From: a virus
Strand: one strand, 5' to 3'
Length of the DNA stretch: 64,000 nt
Virus record (IMG/VR): IMGVR_UViG_3300042154_002686
Location: 16,562 to 80,561 of that record
Positions 26,472 through 51,706 of the stretch are shown here, one piece after another. The translations under genes were made by a program, and so were the position numbers. Each line of letters opens with the position of its first letter. Within the stretch, counting starts at the first letter, position 1. A model generated the notes under the pieces. It was not told the DNA's origin. It saw only the letters and a list, made by a program, of their open reading frames with translations, and searched no databases.

Positions 26472-26605
26472 GAACTAACGAGCCCCCACGGGGGCTCTTT
26501 TTTTTGACCTGCGAGGTAGGCCGTTGAGGGCATCAAATTGATATTGCACATGACCCCTCTCGCCCTCACTCTCATCTTATCAGCAACCCGCCACCCCTCC
26601 CGCAC

Positions 26606-28487: not shown

Positions 28488-28612
28488 GACTCTCGCCCAG
28501 TTAGAACAGAAACGGAACCCATCGGGTTCCTTTTTTGTTCCCTGCGGGTAGGTCGCTACAACCGCCATTTTGCTCTCGACTTGGCCGATGCTTCTGCCAC
28601 TCTGTTGGTCTT

Positions 28613-28798
28613 ATGACCTCCTCCTCCTCCCGCTCGCTGGCCCTCGCCCTCGCCTCGCACGAGGCCCACCTGCTCGACCTCGCCCTTCGCAGGGCCGAGT
28701 GCGTAGCCATGGGCCTCAATCCCGAGGACTATGTCCCCGCTGACCCCGTCTTTGACGAGGAGGACTATCGTCCCATCGTGCGGAAACGCTACGGGTGA
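28613..28798 (+). CDS. Cassette small protein
   Basis: MTSSSSRSLAL...; stop overlaps operator. Confidence 0.7.
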   Translation: MTSSSSRSLALALASHEAHLLDLALRRAECVAMGLNPEDYVPADPVFDEEDYRPIVRKRYG

Positions 28799-31894: not shown

Positions 31895-32036
31895 GGGAAA
31901 GGTCTAATCGCCCCCTCACGGGGGCTTTTTATTTAGACCCCGAGGTAGGTCTGGCAATTGACCGAACGCTCATAAAATGGTGCTCGCTTTTTATGCGTTG
32001 GTGGTTCACAGTGTTGGAGTAATCAATAACCCTCCC

Positions 32037-32174
32037 ATGCATAACATCATCTCGTTCACCTCCGAAGAGTCCCTCGCCAAGTTCCTCTCGAACTTTGACA
32101 TTACCACGAACCGCTTCACGGTCGAACAGACCTCGAAGAACGGTTTCCTCCTCACCTTCTACCCGAGCATCTAA
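32037..32174 (+). CDS. Cassette peptide (45 aa)
   Basis: MHNIISFTSEE... Confidence 0.65.
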   Translation: MHNIISFTSEESLAKFLSNFDITTNRFTVEQTSKNGFLLTFYPSI

Positions 32175-32348
32175 CCCACCCGAAAGGGCTCACCTCTACG
32201 GGGGTGGGCTCTTTTATTTTCTACGAGGGTAGGTGCGGAGGTGCGTGAAATTCGGCACACTTTTTTCTGGTATTTCGAGGTCTGTGTGCTACTGTGATGT
32301 CGCACTCAGCAACACCCACCCACACCCCCACCCACCACCACCACCACC

Positions 32349-32600
32349 ATGTTCGTCTACACCGAAGAATACGCCCGCCAGCAGTCCGAAGCCCGCTCCG
32401 AGGCCATCCGTGCCCGTGCGGAATACGAGAAGACCGTCACCCGCCAGAACGCCATGGCCGAGGCGTGGGATGCGGTCGAGAAGGCCGAGGACGACTGCCG
32501 CAAGGCCAAGGGCACGGTCGCCCGCAAGGAGGCCAAGAAGGCTCTGGCTTACGCTGACTGGGTCTGGAAGACCATGAACGACCCCAAGTTCAAGGTGTAA
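32349..32600 (+). CDS. Cassette small helical protein
   Basis: MFVYTEEY...; preceded by (CAC)n leader. Confidence 0.75.
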   Translation: MFVYTEEYARQQSEARSEAIRARAEYEKTVTRQNAMAEAWDAVEKAEDDCRKAKGTVARKEAKKALAYADWVWKTMNDPKFKV

Positions 32601-32704
32601 TCCCAAACGAGCCCCTCACGGGGCTTTTTTGTGCCCTCTGCGGGTAGGTCTGGCGAGCCGCCATTTTGTTGTTGCTTTGCGGGCTGGTTGTGTCACTCTC
32701 TTCT

Positions 32705-32840
32705 TATCGCTCCTGCGATATCAGTCTAATCGGTCTTCCCAGCAGTTAGTAGCCACTAACTCTAAGGCGGACACTGCTGGGATACGCCTCCCGATAGACT
32801 AACATAAGACCACCCCTTCGGGGGTGGCAGTTTGTTTTTG
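32705..32840 (+). ncRNA. Structured non-coding RNA occupying a cassette slot
   Basis: Heptamer, promoter and UUCG terminator present but no ATG; stems 32723-33/32791-800 and 32737-46/32773-82; possible pseudoknot 32765-69/32785-89. Confidence 0.7.
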
Positions 32841-32846
32841 TGACTA

Positions 32847-32879
32847 GTGAACATTTGTTCACCATGAACATTTGTTCAC
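32847..32879. promoter_or_regulatory. Tandem TGAAC-N4-GTTCA operator-like palindromes
   Basis: GTGAACatttGTTCAC ca TGAACatttGTTCAC. Confidence 0.7.
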
Positions 32880-32959
32880 CCTGCGGGTAGGCAACTTATA
32901 CGACCGAACGCTCATAAGATAAAACTCGCACAAGCCCCCCGCCATGCTACTCTGATGAC

Positions 32960-33208
32960 ATGGAAATTACTCCACGCCAGCAGGGGCACGAAGCCGCCCG
33001 CTTTAACGAAGAAAACGAGCCGTATTTCGGCCCGCAGGATGACGGGTGCTACGGCACTGTCCCGACCGACCGCCCTGCCCGCCGCCCAAGGGTGGCAAAG
33101 CGGCCCCAGACCTTCGTGGAGGACACCACGCACCCGAGGGGCACGAAGGCGTGGTATCTCCTCAATAAGGGCTGGCATGCCGCCCAGCACCGCCCATACT
33201 GGGACTAA
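32960..33208 (+). CDS. Cassette small protein
   Basis: MEITPRQQG...; ends before terminator. Confidence 0.7.
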   Translation: MEITPRQQGHEAARFNEENEPYFGPQDDGCYGTVPTDRPARRPRVAKRPQTFVEDTTHPRGTKAWYLLNKGWHAAQHRPYWD

Positions 33209-33336
33209 GGGCGAAAGCCCTCCCGAGCCCCAAGGGGGGCTCTTTTTTTTACTACGAGGGTAGGTCGCACGAAGGGTCGAAAAAGAAAATTATGGTGTTG
33301 CATGAACCGATTTTTTAACCACATTCATAGTCGATT

Positions 33337-33531
33337 ATGAAACTCGTATTCCTCATTCAGCAACCGACCGAAGAAGGCGAACCCCTCTTCTGGTCTAACC
33401 TCGATGGCTGGGTCTCCAAGGACTGTGCCGACCGCTTCTCTGGCGAAGAGCAGTTGACCACCCCCTTGCCCGCTGGTGGCATCTGGGACTATACCACGGT
33501 CTGGTCTACTATCGACTTCCCCCAGTCGTAA
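33337..33531 (+). CDS. Cassette small protein
   Basis: LFWSNLDGWV...F...LP.GG.W; ATG 79 nt after heptamer. Confidence 0.75.
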   Translation: MKLVFLIQQPTEEGEPLFWSNLDGWVSKDCADRFSGEEQLTTPLPAGGIWDYTTVWSTIDFPQS

Positions 33532-41343: not shown

Positions 41344-42177
41344 ATGACCACCACCACCGCCCCCAAGTCCACGGTTGCCGATGTTATCGCTGACCGCTTC
41401 ATCAAGTCCCTCGAAAACGGAGTCGCCCCTTGGCAAAAGCCGTGGGCGAGCGTCCGCCCCCAGAACGGTGTCAGCCGTAAGCCTTACAAGGGCGTAAACG
41501 CCTTCATGCTGGCCTTCTTCGGGGGTGATGACTACTTCCTCACTTACAAGCAAGCCAAAGCCCTTGGCGGGCAGGTGGAAGAGGGTGCAAAGGGTATCCC
41601 CGTGACCTTCTGGAAGCGTATGGAGAAGAAGGACAAAAGCGGGGACTATCTGGTTTGCCGATACTACACGGTTTTCCCCGTGTCCAAGTGCGGACTCCCC
41701 GACTTCAAACGGGCGAACAAGGTCATTACCTTCTCCCCCGTAGAACTTGCCGAGGTCGTTCTTGCGAAGAACACGACCCCCGTCAGCCACGGCGGAGCCT
41801 CGGCTTACTACACGCCCTCCAAGCATGCAATCCAGATGCCCAATAAGGAGTCCTTCAAGTCGGTTGCTAACTATTACGCAACCCTCTTCCATGAGATTGG
41901 GCACTCCCTCGGGGAGCACTCCTCGGACTCCTTCGGGGGTGAGGTCTACGCAAAGGAGGAACTTGTGGCCGAACTTTTCGCCTCGATTGCCCTCCAACAT
42001 TGCGGACTCCTCGAAAGCGTAAACTTCGACAATTCGACCGCTTACCTCGGGTCTTGGCTGAAAGCCCTTAATGATGATAAGACTCTCATCCAGAAAGCCA
42101 GCACGGAAGCCTTCAAGCGGTGGGAGAAACTGATGGGCAAGGTCGAAGAGGAGGTCGAGGAGGAGGTCGAGGCATAA
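41344..42177 (+). CDS. ardC: ArdC-family ssDNA-binding antirestriction protein (DUF1738 + zincin)
   Basis: PWQKPW, YKGVN, FLTYKQA..LGGQV, AYYTP..H.IQMP, YYATLFHEIGH, YAKEELVAE, YLGSWL. Confidence 0.88.
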   Translation: MTTTTAPKSTVADVIADRFIKSLENGVAPWQKPWASVRPQNGVSRKPYKGVNAFMLAFFGGDDYFLTYKQAKALGGQVEEGAKGIPVTFWKRMEKKDKSGDYLVCRYYTVFPVSKCGLPDFKRANKVITFSPVELAEVVLAKNTTPVSHGGASAYYTPSKHAIQMPNKESFKSVANYYATLFHEIGHSLGEHSSDSFGGEVYAKEELVAELFASIALQHCGLLESVNFDNSTAYLGSWLKALNDDKTLIQKASTEAFKRWEKLMGKVEEEVEEEVEA

Positions 42178-43618: not shown

Positions 43619-43743
43619 TAGTCGTGCCAGAGTCCAGCCTTACGGCTGGGCTCCATGCCGTGGGGGTAGGTTTCTTGCGGGCATAAAATAGTTCTTGTAT
43701 TTTGAGCCATTCCATGCACAATGTCTTTCTCATCACCCAACAC

Positions 43744-44064
43744 ATGAACAACAACACCACCCCCCTGTCCGCTTTCTTGGCGGAACACACCACCCACCTC
43801 CCCTCGGAAGTCCTTGTCCTCTGGATGGACAACCTTAACGAGACCGTCCCGACCCGCAAGTTGCTCGACCAAGCGGAAGACGCTTACATTGGCGAGTTCC
43901 GAGACTTCACCCGCCTTGCCGAGCATCTGGTAGACGAGTCGGGCATGCTCTCTAACATCCCCTCCGAAATCGCCAACTATTTCGATTATGAGAAGTATGG
44001 CAACGACCTCCGACTTGGCGGGGATGTCTGGGAGTCGGATGGGCACTTCTTCCGCAACATCTAA
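43744..44064 (+). CDS. ardA: ArdA-like antirestriction (DNA mimic) protein, short form
   Basis: YIGEF...AEHLVDE.G.L..IP.EI.NYFDYEKYG.DL. Confidence 0.8.
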   Translation: MNNNTTPLSAFLAEHTTHLPSEVLVLWMDNLNETVPTRKLLDQAEDAYIGEFRDFTRLAEHLVDESGMLSNIPSEIANYFDYEKYGNDLRLGGDVWESDGHFFRNI

Positions 44065-46914: not shown

Positions 46915-47088
46915 ATGGAAGACCAAGATAAGCACCGCATGGCAGAGGTTCGAGACCTTGTGCTTTATGTTATCCGAGCAAAGGACAAGTTGGATGGGCA
47001 GGGTGAACCTGCCCGTTCCGAGAACCTTGCCAGAATTCGAGAAGCCCAGATGCGACTTGAAGTCATAAAGGCAGAGATGGGGTTATGA
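46915..47088 (+). CDS. Hypothetical peptide (57 aa)
   Basis: MEDQDKHR..., translated by hand. Confidence 0.5.
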   Translation: MEDQDKHRMAEVRDLVLYVIRAKDKLDGQGEPARSENLARIREAQMRLEVIKAEMGL

Positions 47089-47136
47089 CCCCATTTTTGC
47101 CACCCCCCCTCACAGGCAAACAACTGGGGTAGGCTT

Positions 47137-47929: not shown

Positions 47930-48019
47930 TCAAGAGGGGCACAGTTAGTGCCCCTTTTTTGTTCCCACCCCATATCAGCAAACAACGGGGGTAGGCTTTT
48001 ATCGGGATAGTAAATACTG

Positions 48020-48249
48020 AAAGACCCCCCACCCCGTAAAGCGGATGTGGAGGGTCAGTTGTATGAGTAACACCGTCATCAGCAACTACCAATTAATCGG
48101 AGACTTTTCATAACCCTTTACATACTACTCTGGTTAGACCAATCGAGTATGTTCGGCTCACCGCTGGTAGTCGGTGGCAGTCCTTACGGATACTGCAAGG
48201 GGGCGGGCCTCACGGCTTGTCGCATCTCCAAAGTGTTAGAATGAACTAT
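48020..48249 (-). ncRNA. Putative structured ncRNA 2
   Basis: TTGACA (48278-83) and CATCAT (48256-61) promoter; GNRA hairpins (GUGA, GUAA) inside a GGAGA/UCUCC stem; terminator-like hairpin 48019-56. Confidence 0.55.
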
Positions 48250-48289
48250 GCATACATGATGCATACCTTTCTTCTAATGTCAAGACCAA

Positions 48290-48460
48290 CTTGAACATCC
48301 TTTGCTTTTAGAGACGGGAACCTTTCGGTTATTTGTCCCGCCCCCTCTGTCTGCAAAGGCATCTCGGGGTCAGTATATCCGCTGGCATCATTTCCCCGCT
48401 TTGGACACGGAGCGATTATCGGGCGACCAGACCTTGCCACAAGTCATTTCAAATAACGAT
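48290..48460 (-). ncRNA. Putative structured ncRNA 1
   Basis: TTGCAA (48490-95) and CATCAT (48468-73) promoter; nested CCUUUGC/GCAAAGG stem with AACC-GAAA-GGUU. Confidence 0.5.
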
Positions 48461-48555
48461 AAGACACATGATGCATAACTTGGGTTGGATTGCAACACAA
48501 TTCTTTCTGAAAGATTGTGCTTGAAAAAACAAGAAAGCCATGCATCATGTGTGGT

Positions 48556-50463: not shown

Positions 50464-50833
50464 AGTGACTCACAGCCCCCTTTACGGGGGCTTTTTGCGT
50501 ATGCCACAAGGACGACAGGGGGATTATTAAGGGGGGCGGCACGGGGGATGGTCAAGGGGAAACAAAACCCCCACTCCATAATAAGATAAACTTATAGACA
50601 GGATTAGAGTTTATGATATTAGTGAAATTTATAACCCCCCATACATTTACTAATGACGGGGGTAGGTTCCTGTAGCAATCGACATATTGTTTTGGATGTG
50701 TCTGCTAAACAAGCACTTGCGGATGACTTTAATCTTTCTTTCATCTATTTCAGATTTGGTGCTTGCTATTCTAATTAAAGCATGCATGATGAATGTCGTT
50801 CCAACAAACACCAAACCAAAAAACACAAAACAC

Positions 50834-51706
50834 ATGACCACCAACCTCATCACCACCATCGCCTCCGAAGCCATTGAGCGTCAGACGGAAAAGTTCGACT
50901 ACACGGTCGAGCAAGTCCCGTTCCACCTGCCCAACGGCTCGGCTACCCGCTTCTTCGCCAATGTCCGCACGGACAACGGTGAAGTCCTCGGTTGCGTTAC
51001 CGACCGTTATGAAGTCCTCCAAAACTCCGACATGCTCGGAGCCTCGGAAGACCTCTTCAAGACGGCTGGCTTCTCCAACTTCAAGCGTAAGACGGTCTGC
51101 ACCAATGGCGGTGCTCGTATCCGTGCCATTTACGACTTCCCCGACCACGGGTTCAAGTTGTCCAACGGCAACGACCTTACCTTCCGCTTGAAGGTTCAGA
51201 ACTCCTTTGACGGGTCTCTCCGAGCCTCGTTCCAAGTCGGCCTCGTCCGTCTGGTCTGCACGAATGGCCTTGCCCTGCCGATTGCGGCTGTCGGCATGAC
51301 CCGCAAGCACACGCAGACGCTGGATGCTAACACCCTCCGTGATGCGTTCGCCCGTTCCATCAATGCGTTCAAGGACTCGGCTCCGCTGTTCAACAACATG
51401 ATTGAGACCAAGGTCTCGCAGGAAGAGGGCAACAGCATCCTGCTGGGCTTCGAGAAAGCCAAGGTCATGTCGGAACGCATGCGTGAGGGCATCCAGTCGG
51501 TCTGGGAGCGTCCGACTTATGCGGAAGACAGCGGTCGCAACCTGTTCAACCTCTACAACGCTGTGACCCAGCACCTTACCCACTCGGTTGAGGGCAAGCG
51601 GTTTGAACTTGCCGAGCGTGTGAACACGGGAACGCTCAACGCCATCTCCAAGGCGGTTCGCAATCGGAGCATCAACAGTCTGATGTTCACCCCCTCGGAT
51701 AACTAA
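50834..51706 (+). CDS. DUF932-family protein
   Basis: RTD..VLG.V.DRY..LQN, NSFDGS, RLVCTNG, LFNLYNAVT. Confidence 0.8.
   Translation: MTTNLITTIASEAIERQTEKFDYTVEQVPFHLPNGSATRFFANVRTDNGEVLGCVTDRYEVLQNSDMLGASEDLFKTAGFSNFKRKTVCTNGGARIRAIYDFPDHGFKLSNGNDLTFRLKVQNSFDGSLRASFQVGLVRLVCTNGLALPIAAVGMTRKHTQTLDANTLRDAFARSINAFKDSAPLFNNMIETKVSQEEGNSILLGFEKAKVMSERMREGIQSVWERPTYAEDSGRNLFNLYNAVTQHLTHSVEGKRFELAERVNTGTLNAISKAVRNRSINSLMFTPSDN

What the first reader, a model, noticed from the sequence alone, without database searches (positions are those of the whole stretch)
32642..32879. A cassette whose cargo is a structured RNA with a possible pseudoknot
Seen: full cassette frame (heptamer at 32642, TTGCTT...CACTCT promoter, CCACCCC-TTCG-GGGGTGG terminator) but no ATG in the roughly 130-nt transcript. 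It folds into a 5' hairpin (32705-20), an outer stem AGUCU-A-AUCGG/CCGAU-AGACU, a perfect 10-bp stem UCCCAGCAGU/ACUGCUGGGA and an inner UAGU-AGCC-ACUA hairpin. Loop AGGCG (32765-69) is complementary to internal-loop CGCCU (32785-89). Inference: an early RNA effector, such as a mimic of a pseudoknotted type III antitoxin, an RNA anti-CRISPR, a protein decoy or a ribozyme.
Basis: partly seen in the sequence, partly recalled or inferred. Interest (0 to 1): 0.75.

Follow-up and report, generated by a model that had tools for sequence, protein, structure and literature searches.

The report
Orphan structured small RNA phage cassette
One unit in this lake phage's long row of single-gene early expression units carries no protein gene but a tightly folded RNA of about 130 nt; it matches no known RNA family, no relative outside near-identical strains was found, and its job is unknown.

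Summary
At 32642-32840 there is a complete cassette (GGGTAGG head, TTGCTT-16 nt-CACTCT promoter, CCACCCC-UUCG-GGGGUGG terminator). It is the only one of about 47 plus-strand cassettes with no ORF.

The roughly 133-nt transcript folds far better than shuffles (z -4.6 without the terminator, -5.5 with it). It has a 5' hairpin, a 10-bp outer stem and a perfect 10-bp inner stem. The AGGCG/CGCCU pseudoknot is possible: 1.4% of loop shuffles pair as well.

There is no Rfam, tRNA or ribozyme match. I found no homolog in 17 related viral records or in pattern scans, so covariation could not be tested. In two slightly divergent lake-metagenome strains the RNA shows no change while its flanks differ by about 2%.

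The array also carries ArdA and ArdC-like anti-restriction genes. A relative carries a tmRNA-like tRNA-like RNA in an ORF-less cassette.

Best reading: a real, separately transcribed early non-coding RNA that acts through its fold, probably as a protein-binding decoy. The function is inferred, not shown. An earlier scan note describes similar ORF-less cassettes in a T4-type phage. Interest is moderate.

The parts
32604..32636 (+). Intrinsic terminator of the preceding cassette (83-aa ORF 32349-32600)
   Evidence: GAGCCCC-TCAC-GGGGCTT followed by a T-run.
32642..32648 (+). Cassette head heptamer GGGTAGG
   Evidence: CTGCGGGTAGG occurs 8 times against 0.68 expected; about 50 GGTAGG heads, each just after a terminator.
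32672..32699 (+). Promoter: TTGCTT (-35), 16-nt spacer, CACTCT (-10)
   Evidence: The same CACTCT-N-TCTTATC promoter variant drives the protein-coding cassettes headed at 26515 and 28547.
32706..32838 (+). Predicted transcript of about 133 nt. The start is inferred at 7 nt after the -10 and the end in the U-tract.
   Evidence: Inference. There are no RNA data.
32705..32720 (+). P0: 5'-terminal hairpin (U)AUCGC-UCCU-GCGAU(A)
   Evidence: pair probabilities 0.87-1.0.
32723..32800 (+). Main domain closed by P1 (32723-33 with 32791-800, 10 bp, one bulged A)
32737..32782 (+). P2: perfect 10-bp stem UCCCAGCAGU/ACUGCUGGGA enclosing a 26-nt apical loop
   Evidence: inverted repeat I4, 100% complementary.
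32747..32758 (+). Candidate P3 hairpin UAGU-AGCC-ACUA. It is conditional on the pseudoknot.
   Evidence: it appears only when the pseudoknot bases are constrained to stay unpaired; probability near 0 in the nested ensemble.
32765..32789 (+). Candidate pseudoknot: AGGCG (32765-69) with CGCCU (32785-89)
   Evidence: duplex -6.6 to -8.9 kcal/mol; 1.4% of loop shuffles pair as well.
32801..32839 (+). Terminator: CCACCCC-UUCG-GGGGUGG (32810-27), then CAG and UUUGUUUUU. The A-rich 32801-09 can pair with the U-tract.
   Evidence: inverted repeat I2.
32847..32879 (.). Two tandem 16-bp dyads GTGAACATTTGTTCAC / ATGAACATTTGTTCAC (operator-like) abutting the next cassette head at 32885. They probably belong to the next cassette.
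   Evidence: D3, I1; a 92% match to a similar dyad in relative G003.

Best explanation
This is a stand-alone gene for a small, compact non-coding RNA of about 133 nt. It is one cargo among about 50 single-cargo early expression cassettes of an uncultured freshwater phage.

What the sequence shows:
- The cassette has the array's own head and promoter type and a terminator, and it has no reading frame.
- The RNA folds into a 5'-terminal hairpin, a 20-bp two-part stem (P1/P2) and a terminator hairpin.
- Nearly all the remaining single-stranded bases, in the apical loop and the 3' internal loop, can pair with each other as a pseudoknot.

What I infer:
- With so few free bases and no antisense target in the phage, the RNA most likely acts in trans through its shape.
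- It would bind and titrate a host or phage protein early in infection. Given the ArdA and ArdC-like neighbours in the array, that protein is plausibly a defence or RNA-handling protein.

My odds are about 0.65 that it is a functional RNA gene and about 0.3 that the decoy mechanism specifically is right. The confidence figure given for this explanation (0.55) refers to the statement as a whole: a functional, separately transcribed RNA that acts through its fold.
For: - Cassette anatomy matches the coding cassettes. The promoter variant is shared with the cassettes headed at 26515 and 28547.
- It is the only plus-strand cassette without an ORF, and no gene is called there in public collections. 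The transcript has no ATG and at most 31 open codons with no usual start.
- The fold is strong: z -5.5 and -4.6, with 0 of 200 shuffles as good. The core ranks 19th of about 950 array windows; several of those ranked above it lie at terminator positions (not checked for all).
- Loop-loop complementarity is reached by only 1.4% of shuffles.
- Contigs from two slightly divergent lake-metagenome strains show 0 differences over about 200 nt of RNA. They show about 22 differences over about 990 nt of flanks (my count, Poisson P about 0.01).
- It resembles no gene or leader of the phage or its relatives, so it is not a recognisable gene remnant.
- Context: ArdC-like, ArdA and DUF932 genes sit in the same array. 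Relative G003 has an ORF-less cassette encoding a tmRNA-like tRNA-like domain, so RNA cargo occurs in these arrays.
Against: - There is no evidence of expression.
- No homolog was found beyond near-identical strains, so there is no covariation. Strain invariance rests on two low-depth contig sets with clustered differences.
- All helices are Watson-Crick, so the fold does not tell the strand.
- The pseudoknot and P3 are unproven.
- Nothing identifies a binding partner, and the neighbouring genes are ORFans.
- The anti-defence context is guilt by association in an array where most cargo is unknown.
Confidence: 0.55

Rival explanations
1. It is a base-pairing small RNA. Exposed pyrimidine-rich motifs would pair with purine-rich ribosome-binding sites of host or phage mRNAs and alter their translation or stability. 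The candidate motifs are the CUCCU loop of the 5' hairpin, UCUUCCC, and CCUCC in the internal loop.
For: It has a stand-alone promoter and terminator like classical sRNAs. The CUCCU loop and the CCUCC motif resemble an anti-Shine-Dalgarno sequence (read directly). Many cassettes carry GGAG just before the ATG. CAUAAGACC (32803-11) is the exact complement of GGUCUUAUG over the start codon of the cassette headed at 28547.
Against: There is no antisense match of 12 nt or more elsewhere in the 80.5-kb genome. Duplex energies against 46 cassette 5' regions are no better than shuffles: 15/30, 15/30, 7/30 and 2/30 shuffles did as well. Most of the RNA is locked in stable helices, and the A-rich linker can pair with the U-tract. 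Host targets cannot be examined because the host is unknown.
Confidence: 0.15
2. It is a cis-acting transcription element. It would be either a put-like RNA that makes the transcribing polymerase read through the many downstream terminators, or a structured leader of the next gene (32960-33205) reached by read-through of a leaky terminator.
For: The RNA begins at the predicted +1 and consists of a hairpin plus a long irregular stem-loop directly upstream of a terminator. It sits in a region with about 50 terminators on one strand. Its terminator is atypical because 3 nt (CAG) separate the stem from the U-tract.
Against: The next cassette has its own complete head, promoter and operators. No alternative anti-terminator pairing with the terminator's 5' arm is visible (my reading). 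No riboswitch or leader family matches. There is no similarity to anything in relatives that share the array design.
Confidence: 0.1
3. It is a non-functional leftover: an emptied or recombinant cassette whose insert happens to be palindromic.
For: Cassettes are shuffled between relatives. It is among the shortest units at 243 nt. It is an orphan with no homolog. An earlier scan note (e1-5747409) reports one such leader-to-tail joint in another phage.
Against: Three independent perfect helices of 6, 10 and 10 bp give z about -4.6, and no shuffle reaches that. There is no similarity to any leader, ORF or tail in the phage or its relatives. No differences were seen in divergent strains.
Confidence: 0.1
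4. It is a self-cleaving ribozyme or a ligand-binding (riboswitch-like) aptamer of a new class.
For: The topology is nested helices with a terminal-loop to internal-loop pseudoknot. Several ribozymes and aptamers share this arrangement (the comparison is from general knowledge).
Against: No match to any Rfam ribozyme or riboswitch model at E up to 10 with relaxed filters. There is no expression platform. There is no conserved-nucleotide evidence because there are no homologs.
Confidence: 0.04
5. It encodes a tiny peptide from a non-canonical start codon.
For: Frame 2 is open for 31 codons and contains a CTG.
Against: There is no ATG, GTG or TTG start with a usable frame inside the transcript. 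The frame lies inside very stable helices. No gene caller called it.
Confidence: 0.02

Closest known systems
PeSL (promoter-early stem-loop) cassettes of T4-type phage hyperplastic regions (Arbiol et al. 2010, PMC2839356; PMC4122927)
   Same: These are arrays of small non-essential early genes, each bracketed by a sigma70-like promoter and a stem-loop terminator, and shuffled as modules between related phages. The same design is seen here.
   Different: This phage is not T4-type: its best TerL hits in GenBank phages are about 24% identical or less. Each unit also carries a GGGTAGG head about 45 nt upstream of the -10, which is GCTAGG in relative G003. The cargo of this unit is an RNA. I read only the abstract of the PeSL paper, and it speaks of genes, not RNA cargo.
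RNA anti-CRISPRs (Racrs, solitary repeat units; Camara-Wilpert et al. 2023, PMC10651486)
   Same: Both are small non-coding RNAs encoded by phages as stand-alone units, and Racrs act as protein-binding mimics against a defence system (abstract).
   Different: Racrs mimic a CRISPR repeat. This RNA is about 130 nt with a multi-helix fold and no recognisable repeat. Similarity to a host repeat cannot be tested because the host is unknown.
Type III antitoxin RNAs (ToxI-type) and phage pseudo-ToxI (from my own knowledge of the ToxIN literature)
   Same: Both are pseudoknot-forming RNAs that neutralise a protein. A phage copy can act as counter-defence.
   Different: ToxI-type antitoxins are tandem repeats of about 34-45 nt placed before a toxin gene. 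Here there are no tandem repeats and no ToxN-like neighbour.
HK022 put RNAs (from my own knowledge)
   Same: Both have two adjacent stem-loops transcribed immediately after an early promoter and ahead of terminators.
   Different: put acts in cis and has no terminator or cassette of its own. No sequence or family match could be tested, and I did not check whether Rfam holds a put model.
ORF-less RNA cassettes in another phage's early array (earlier scan note e1-5747409)
   Same: Both are promoter-to-terminator units without ORFs inside a swappable early array, and their functions are unknown.
   Different: That is a different phage type (T4-like) with unrelated sequences. Three of those RNAs had a homolog in a relative, whereas this one has none.

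Membership tests
Any Rfam 15 family | Covariance-model score at or near the family's gathering threshold | tested here: not met
   at gathering thresholds the window yields only 11 tRNAs, at 56.9-58.4 kb; at E up to 10 on 32500-33000 there were only three chance-level hits of 11-16 bits, and none lies on the RNA core.
tRNA / tmRNA / tRNA-like | Acceptor and T-arm recognised by ARAGORN or by the Rfam tRNA clan models | tested here: not met
   no tRNA or tmRNA gene in 32000-33500; no hit.
Self-cleaving ribozymes (hammerhead, twister, twister-sister, pistol, hatchet, HDV-like) | Match to the class's conserved core and fold | tested here: not met
   no ribozyme family is listed at E up to 10. Cleavage itself cannot be tested with these tools.
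Type III toxin-antitoxin antitoxin RNA (ToxI-like) or phage mimic | Tandem direct repeats of about 34-45 nt | tested here: not met
   no tandem repeat inside 32700-32840. The only tandem repeat in the region is the 17-nt operator pair at 32848-81.
Type III toxin-antitoxin antitoxin RNA (ToxI-like) or phage mimic | Sequence likeness to a host antitoxin RNA | not testable with these tools
   The host is unknown. TerL has no close cultured relative.
RNA anti-CRISPR (Racr / solitary repeat unit) | Likeness to a CRISPR repeat of the host or of a known subtype | not testable with these tools
   The host is unknown and no CRISPR repeat library was on hand. At about 130 nt the RNA is longer than the repeats Racrs are described as mimicking (abstract of PMC10651486).
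PeSL-type regulatory cassette array | A single cargo flanked by a sigma70-like early promoter and an effective stem-loop terminator, repeated many times and shuffled between relatives | tested here: met
   49 terminator-like sites against 12.3 expected; about 47 units; cargo order is shuffled in G003. Promoter and terminator activity are inferred, not measured.
Antisense immunity RNAs (P1 c4, lambda OOP, P22 sar type) | Extended complementarity to a target transcript of the same phage | tested here: not met
   no complement of 12 nt or more on plus-strand transcripts of the 80.5-kb record; duplexes with cassette 5' regions are no better than shuffles.
HK022 put-type antitermination RNA | A cis-acting two-stem RNA that renders RNA polymerase terminator-resistant | not testable with these tools
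   Only the position (directly after the promoter and ahead of terminators) is compatible.

The most novel reading that the evidence does not exclude
The RNA founds a new class of phage counter-defence effector. It would be a compact pseudoknotted RNA, delivered as a standard early cassette alongside ArdA and ArdC-like proteins, that binds and disables a host immune or RNA-handling protein. The tmRNA-like mini-RNA cassette in relative G003 would be a second example of RNA cargo in these arsenals.
Probability: 0.15. Interest if true: 0.8.

Novelty: new member of a known kind. Interest (0 to 1): 0.42.

Why it matters
Phage early arrays of small ORFan genes are now read as counter-defence arsenals. 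Almost all known effectors in them are proteins. A cassette whose cargo is a compact RNA, in an array that also holds ArdA and ArdC-like genes, would extend the short list of RNA-based phage effectors (Racrs, pseudo-ToxI, tRNA decoys).

The standardised cassette makes the claim easy to test, because promoter, cargo and terminator can be moved as one 240-bp piece. The present evidence only shows a well-founded candidate RNA gene. Its rarity and the absence of homologs limit what can be learned without experiments.

Tried and rejected
Sequence and model searches for homologs (all negative):
- blastn of the 1-kb region and of the RNA alone against GenBank phages gave nothing, or chance hits of 20-30 nt.
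- An exact 24-mer in IMG/VR gave no hits.
- The P2-stem pattern with a variable gap in IMG/VR gave 15 hits, all unrelated palindromes.
- The cassette-head plus box-A pattern in IMG/VR gave 2 chance hits.
- The pseudoknot-centred pattern in JGI metagenome contigs gave 18 hits, none matching the covariance model.
- Covariance model R1 (single sequence, 30 pairs) matched only the window itself. It was run on the window, TerL-related contigs, array-protein-related contigs and 12 whole viral records.

Neighbour-gene route:
- The upstream 83-aa and downstream 82-aa genes have no relatives in IMG/VR. One search used the wrong frame.
- In the 5.8-billion-protein set each has one diverged relative: P0002 at 86% and P0005 at 74%.

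Other attempts:
- Spurious-ORF trick: no ORF over the RNA is in the protein collection. The references were badly chosen.
- Sequencing runs: only near-identical lake strains turned up. They give invariance but no covariation, and no RNA run was laid.
- Host inference with the ArdC-like protein in 185,579 genomes gave only 32-40% relatives in many phyla, so no host was identified.
- tblastx and blastn-short of the RNA against all loci found no gene remnant.
- The first genome-wide duplex scan timed out. The reduced scan was not significant.

Full report
**Setting**

The window is bases 16562-80561 of an 80.5-kb IMG/VR virus record, estimated 83% complete. Near-identical DNA occurs in many lake and freshwater metagenome runs.
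- Minus-strand genes up to about 26 kb include portal, prohead protease, large terminase and primase.
- TerL has no close cultured relative. Its best GenBank phage hits are about 24% identical or less.
- From 26.2 to about 50 kb the plus strand is a row of roughly 50 units built alike. Each has a G+C-rich hairpin with a T-run, then within 10-20 nt a GGGTAGG/GGATAGG head, a spacer box, a TTGnnn-16/17-(T/C)AnnnT promoter-like pair, and usually one small ORF.
- Terminator-like sites number 49 against 12.3 expected in 26-36 kb.
- The array carries an ArdC-like protein (41344-42177), an ArdA homolog (43714-44064) and a DUF932 protein (50696-51706). The immediate neighbours of the finding match no Pfam or PHROG family.
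- Relative G003 (TerL 86% identical) shares many cargo genes in a different order. It uses GCTAGG instead of GGTAGG as its head.
- The closest described design is the PeSL cassette of T4-type phages (PMC2839356). I took that lead from earlier scan note e1-5747409.

**The observation**

- Head 32642-48; TTGCTT 32672-77; CACTCT 32694-99; terminator 32810-27.
- The promoter variant (CACTCT followed by N-TCTTATC) also drives the protein-coding cassettes headed at 26515 and 28547. This supports a working transcription unit with a start near A32706.
- Of about 47 plus-strand heads, this is the only one without an ORF of 25 aa or more at the usual offset. The only other head with no ORF, at 47990, borders minus-strand elements.
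- The transcript has no ATG. Its longest open stretch is 31 codons with no ATG, GTG or TTG start.
- No ORF over it is present in the public protein collection, whereas both neighbours are.

**The fold**

- 32700-32835 folds at -54.7 kcal/mol against -35.6 ± 3.5 for shuffles (z -5.5).
- The core without the terminator, 32706-32808, gives -38.0 kcal/mol (z -4.6, 0 of 200 shuffles).
- In a sliding scan of the array the core ranks 19th of about 950 windows. Several of those ranked above it lie at terminator positions listed; I did not check this for all of them.
- P0, P1 and P2 are near-certain in the ensemble.
The nested model pairs GCC (32752-54) with GGC (32766-68) instead. The hairpin appears only if the pseudoknot bases are kept free, which costs 4.9 kcal/mol. 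The AGGCG/CGCCU helix (-6.6 to -8.9 kcal/mol as a duplex) can repay that cost.
- Only 1.4% of shuffles of the two loops pair as well. The pseudoknot is therefore plausible but unproven.
- By my own rough geometric estimate, the 3-nt and 2-nt linkers allow the 5-bp helix to lie alongside the lower half of P2. It could not stack on P2 as in a classical H-type knot.
- The A-rich 32801-09 can pair with the U-tract, so very little of the RNA is left single-stranded.
- Every helix pair is Watson-Crick, so the reverse strand folds nearly as well (z -4.2). The strand is assigned from promoter and terminator polarity only.

**Known families**

Rfam finds nothing at gathering thresholds. At E up to 10 there are only three chance-level hits, and none is a ribozyme, riboswitch or sRNA family on the core. 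ARAGORN finds no tRNA or tmRNA. There are no tandem repeats inside the RNA.

**Relatives**

I found none beyond near-identical strains. All of the following were negative:
- blastn against GenBank phages;
- three IMG/VR pattern scans;
- one metagenome pattern scan;
- a covariance model run over 17 related or array-sharing viral records and all fetched loci.

Each flanking gene has a single diverged relative in 5.8 billion proteins (P0002 86%, P0005 74%).

The only comparative signal comes from Logan contigs of four lake runs.
- Two runs are identical to the window throughout and so carry no information.
- The two slightly divergent runs (X4, X5) show no difference over about 200 nt of RNA. By my count from tables 3, 4 and 8 they show about 22 differences over about 990 nt of flanks.
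- That gives about 4.5 differences expected in the RNA, Poisson P about 0.01. The evidence is weak because the differences are clustered and depth is low.

**Mechanism**

- A base-pairing role within the phage is not supported. There is no complement of 12 nt or more elsewhere in the genome, and duplexes with 46 cassette 5' regions are no better than shuffles.
- The one curiosity is that CAUAAGACC (32803-11) is the exact complement of GGUCUUAUG over the start codon of the cassette headed at 28547, which shares this promoter type. Two of 30 shuffles do as well.
- The RNA is not a recognisable remnant of any gene or leader.
- I see no anti-terminator alternative, and the next cassette has its own head, promoter and two operator-like dyads. 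These points argue against a riboswitch-like leader.
- A compact RNA with long perfect helices, self-satisfied loops, its own early promoter and a protected 5' end fits best with a trans-acting, shape-dependent RNA that binds a protein.
- The ArdA/ArdC-like context makes a counter-defence or host-takeover target plausible. So does the tmRNA-like tRNA-like domain in an ORF-less cassette of G003 (L016:7424-7529, Rfam tmRNA 23.7 bits, E 1e-7, below the gathering score). This is inference, not demonstration.

**Verdict**

The specific functions offered are either negative (known ribozymes, type III antitoxin architecture) or untestable (CRISPR-repeat mimic).
- It is a new, so far orphan, member of a known kind: stand-alone phage small RNAs in swappable early cassettes. 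An earlier scan note describes similar ORF-less cassettes in a T4-type phage.
- Interest is moderate. The anatomy is clean and the construct is testable, but there is no expression, covariation or partner evidence.

Noticed in passing
L016:7424-7529 (G003, IMGVR_UViG_3300042868_007474): An ORF-less cassette in the relative encodes a 106-nt tRNA-like domain. It has an 8-bp acceptor GGAGACGG/CCGTCTCC, a T-arm GGGTTCGACTCCC and an encoded UCCA. It matches the two ends of the Rfam tmRNA model (23.7 bits, E 1e-7, below gathering) but has no mRNA-like part. ARAGORN does not call it.
   Followed up: partly
The GAAC-N4-GTTC core is the Cheo-box (Gram-positive LexA) type, and a 92% match exists in G003. 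They could be a phage repressor or host LexA operator, and possibly a clue to the host.
   Followed up: partly
window 41344-42177, 43714-44064, 50696-51706: The array cargo includes an ArdC-like protein (ArdcN plus zincin peptidase domains), an ArdA homolog and a DUF932 protein. This looks like an anti-restriction set inside the early array.
   Followed up: partly
window 26238-50661; L016: The cassette head is GGGTAGG/GGATAGG in this phage but GCTAGG in relative G003 (TerL 86% identical), with TAGG kept. This suggests a phage-specific factor that co-varies with its site. The head lies about 45-55 nt upstream of the -10.
   Followed up: partly
window 33995, 31262, 35012 and other cassettes; L016 cassettes: In many cassettes the ATG lies only 8-10 nt after the (T/C)AnnnT -10 box, often right after GGAG. 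These mRNAs would be leaderless or nearly so. Others share a CA-rich leader GGAGTCGAAAGACACC.
   Followed up: no
window about 46950-47100 and 48019-48495: Windows here have fold z-scores of -5.7 to -6.0 in the sliding scan.
   Followed up: no
window 32803-32811 and 28605-28613: CAUAAGACC, just before the RNA's terminator, is the exact complement of GGUCUUAUG covering the start codon of the cassette headed at 28547. That cassette shares the RNA cassette's promoter variant. Two of 30 shuffles pair as well.
   Followed up: partly
window 32675-32688: The spacer of the RNA cassette's promoter holds a degenerate copy (79%) of the head region: CTTTGCGGGCTGGT against CTCTGCGGGTAGGT.
   Followed up: no
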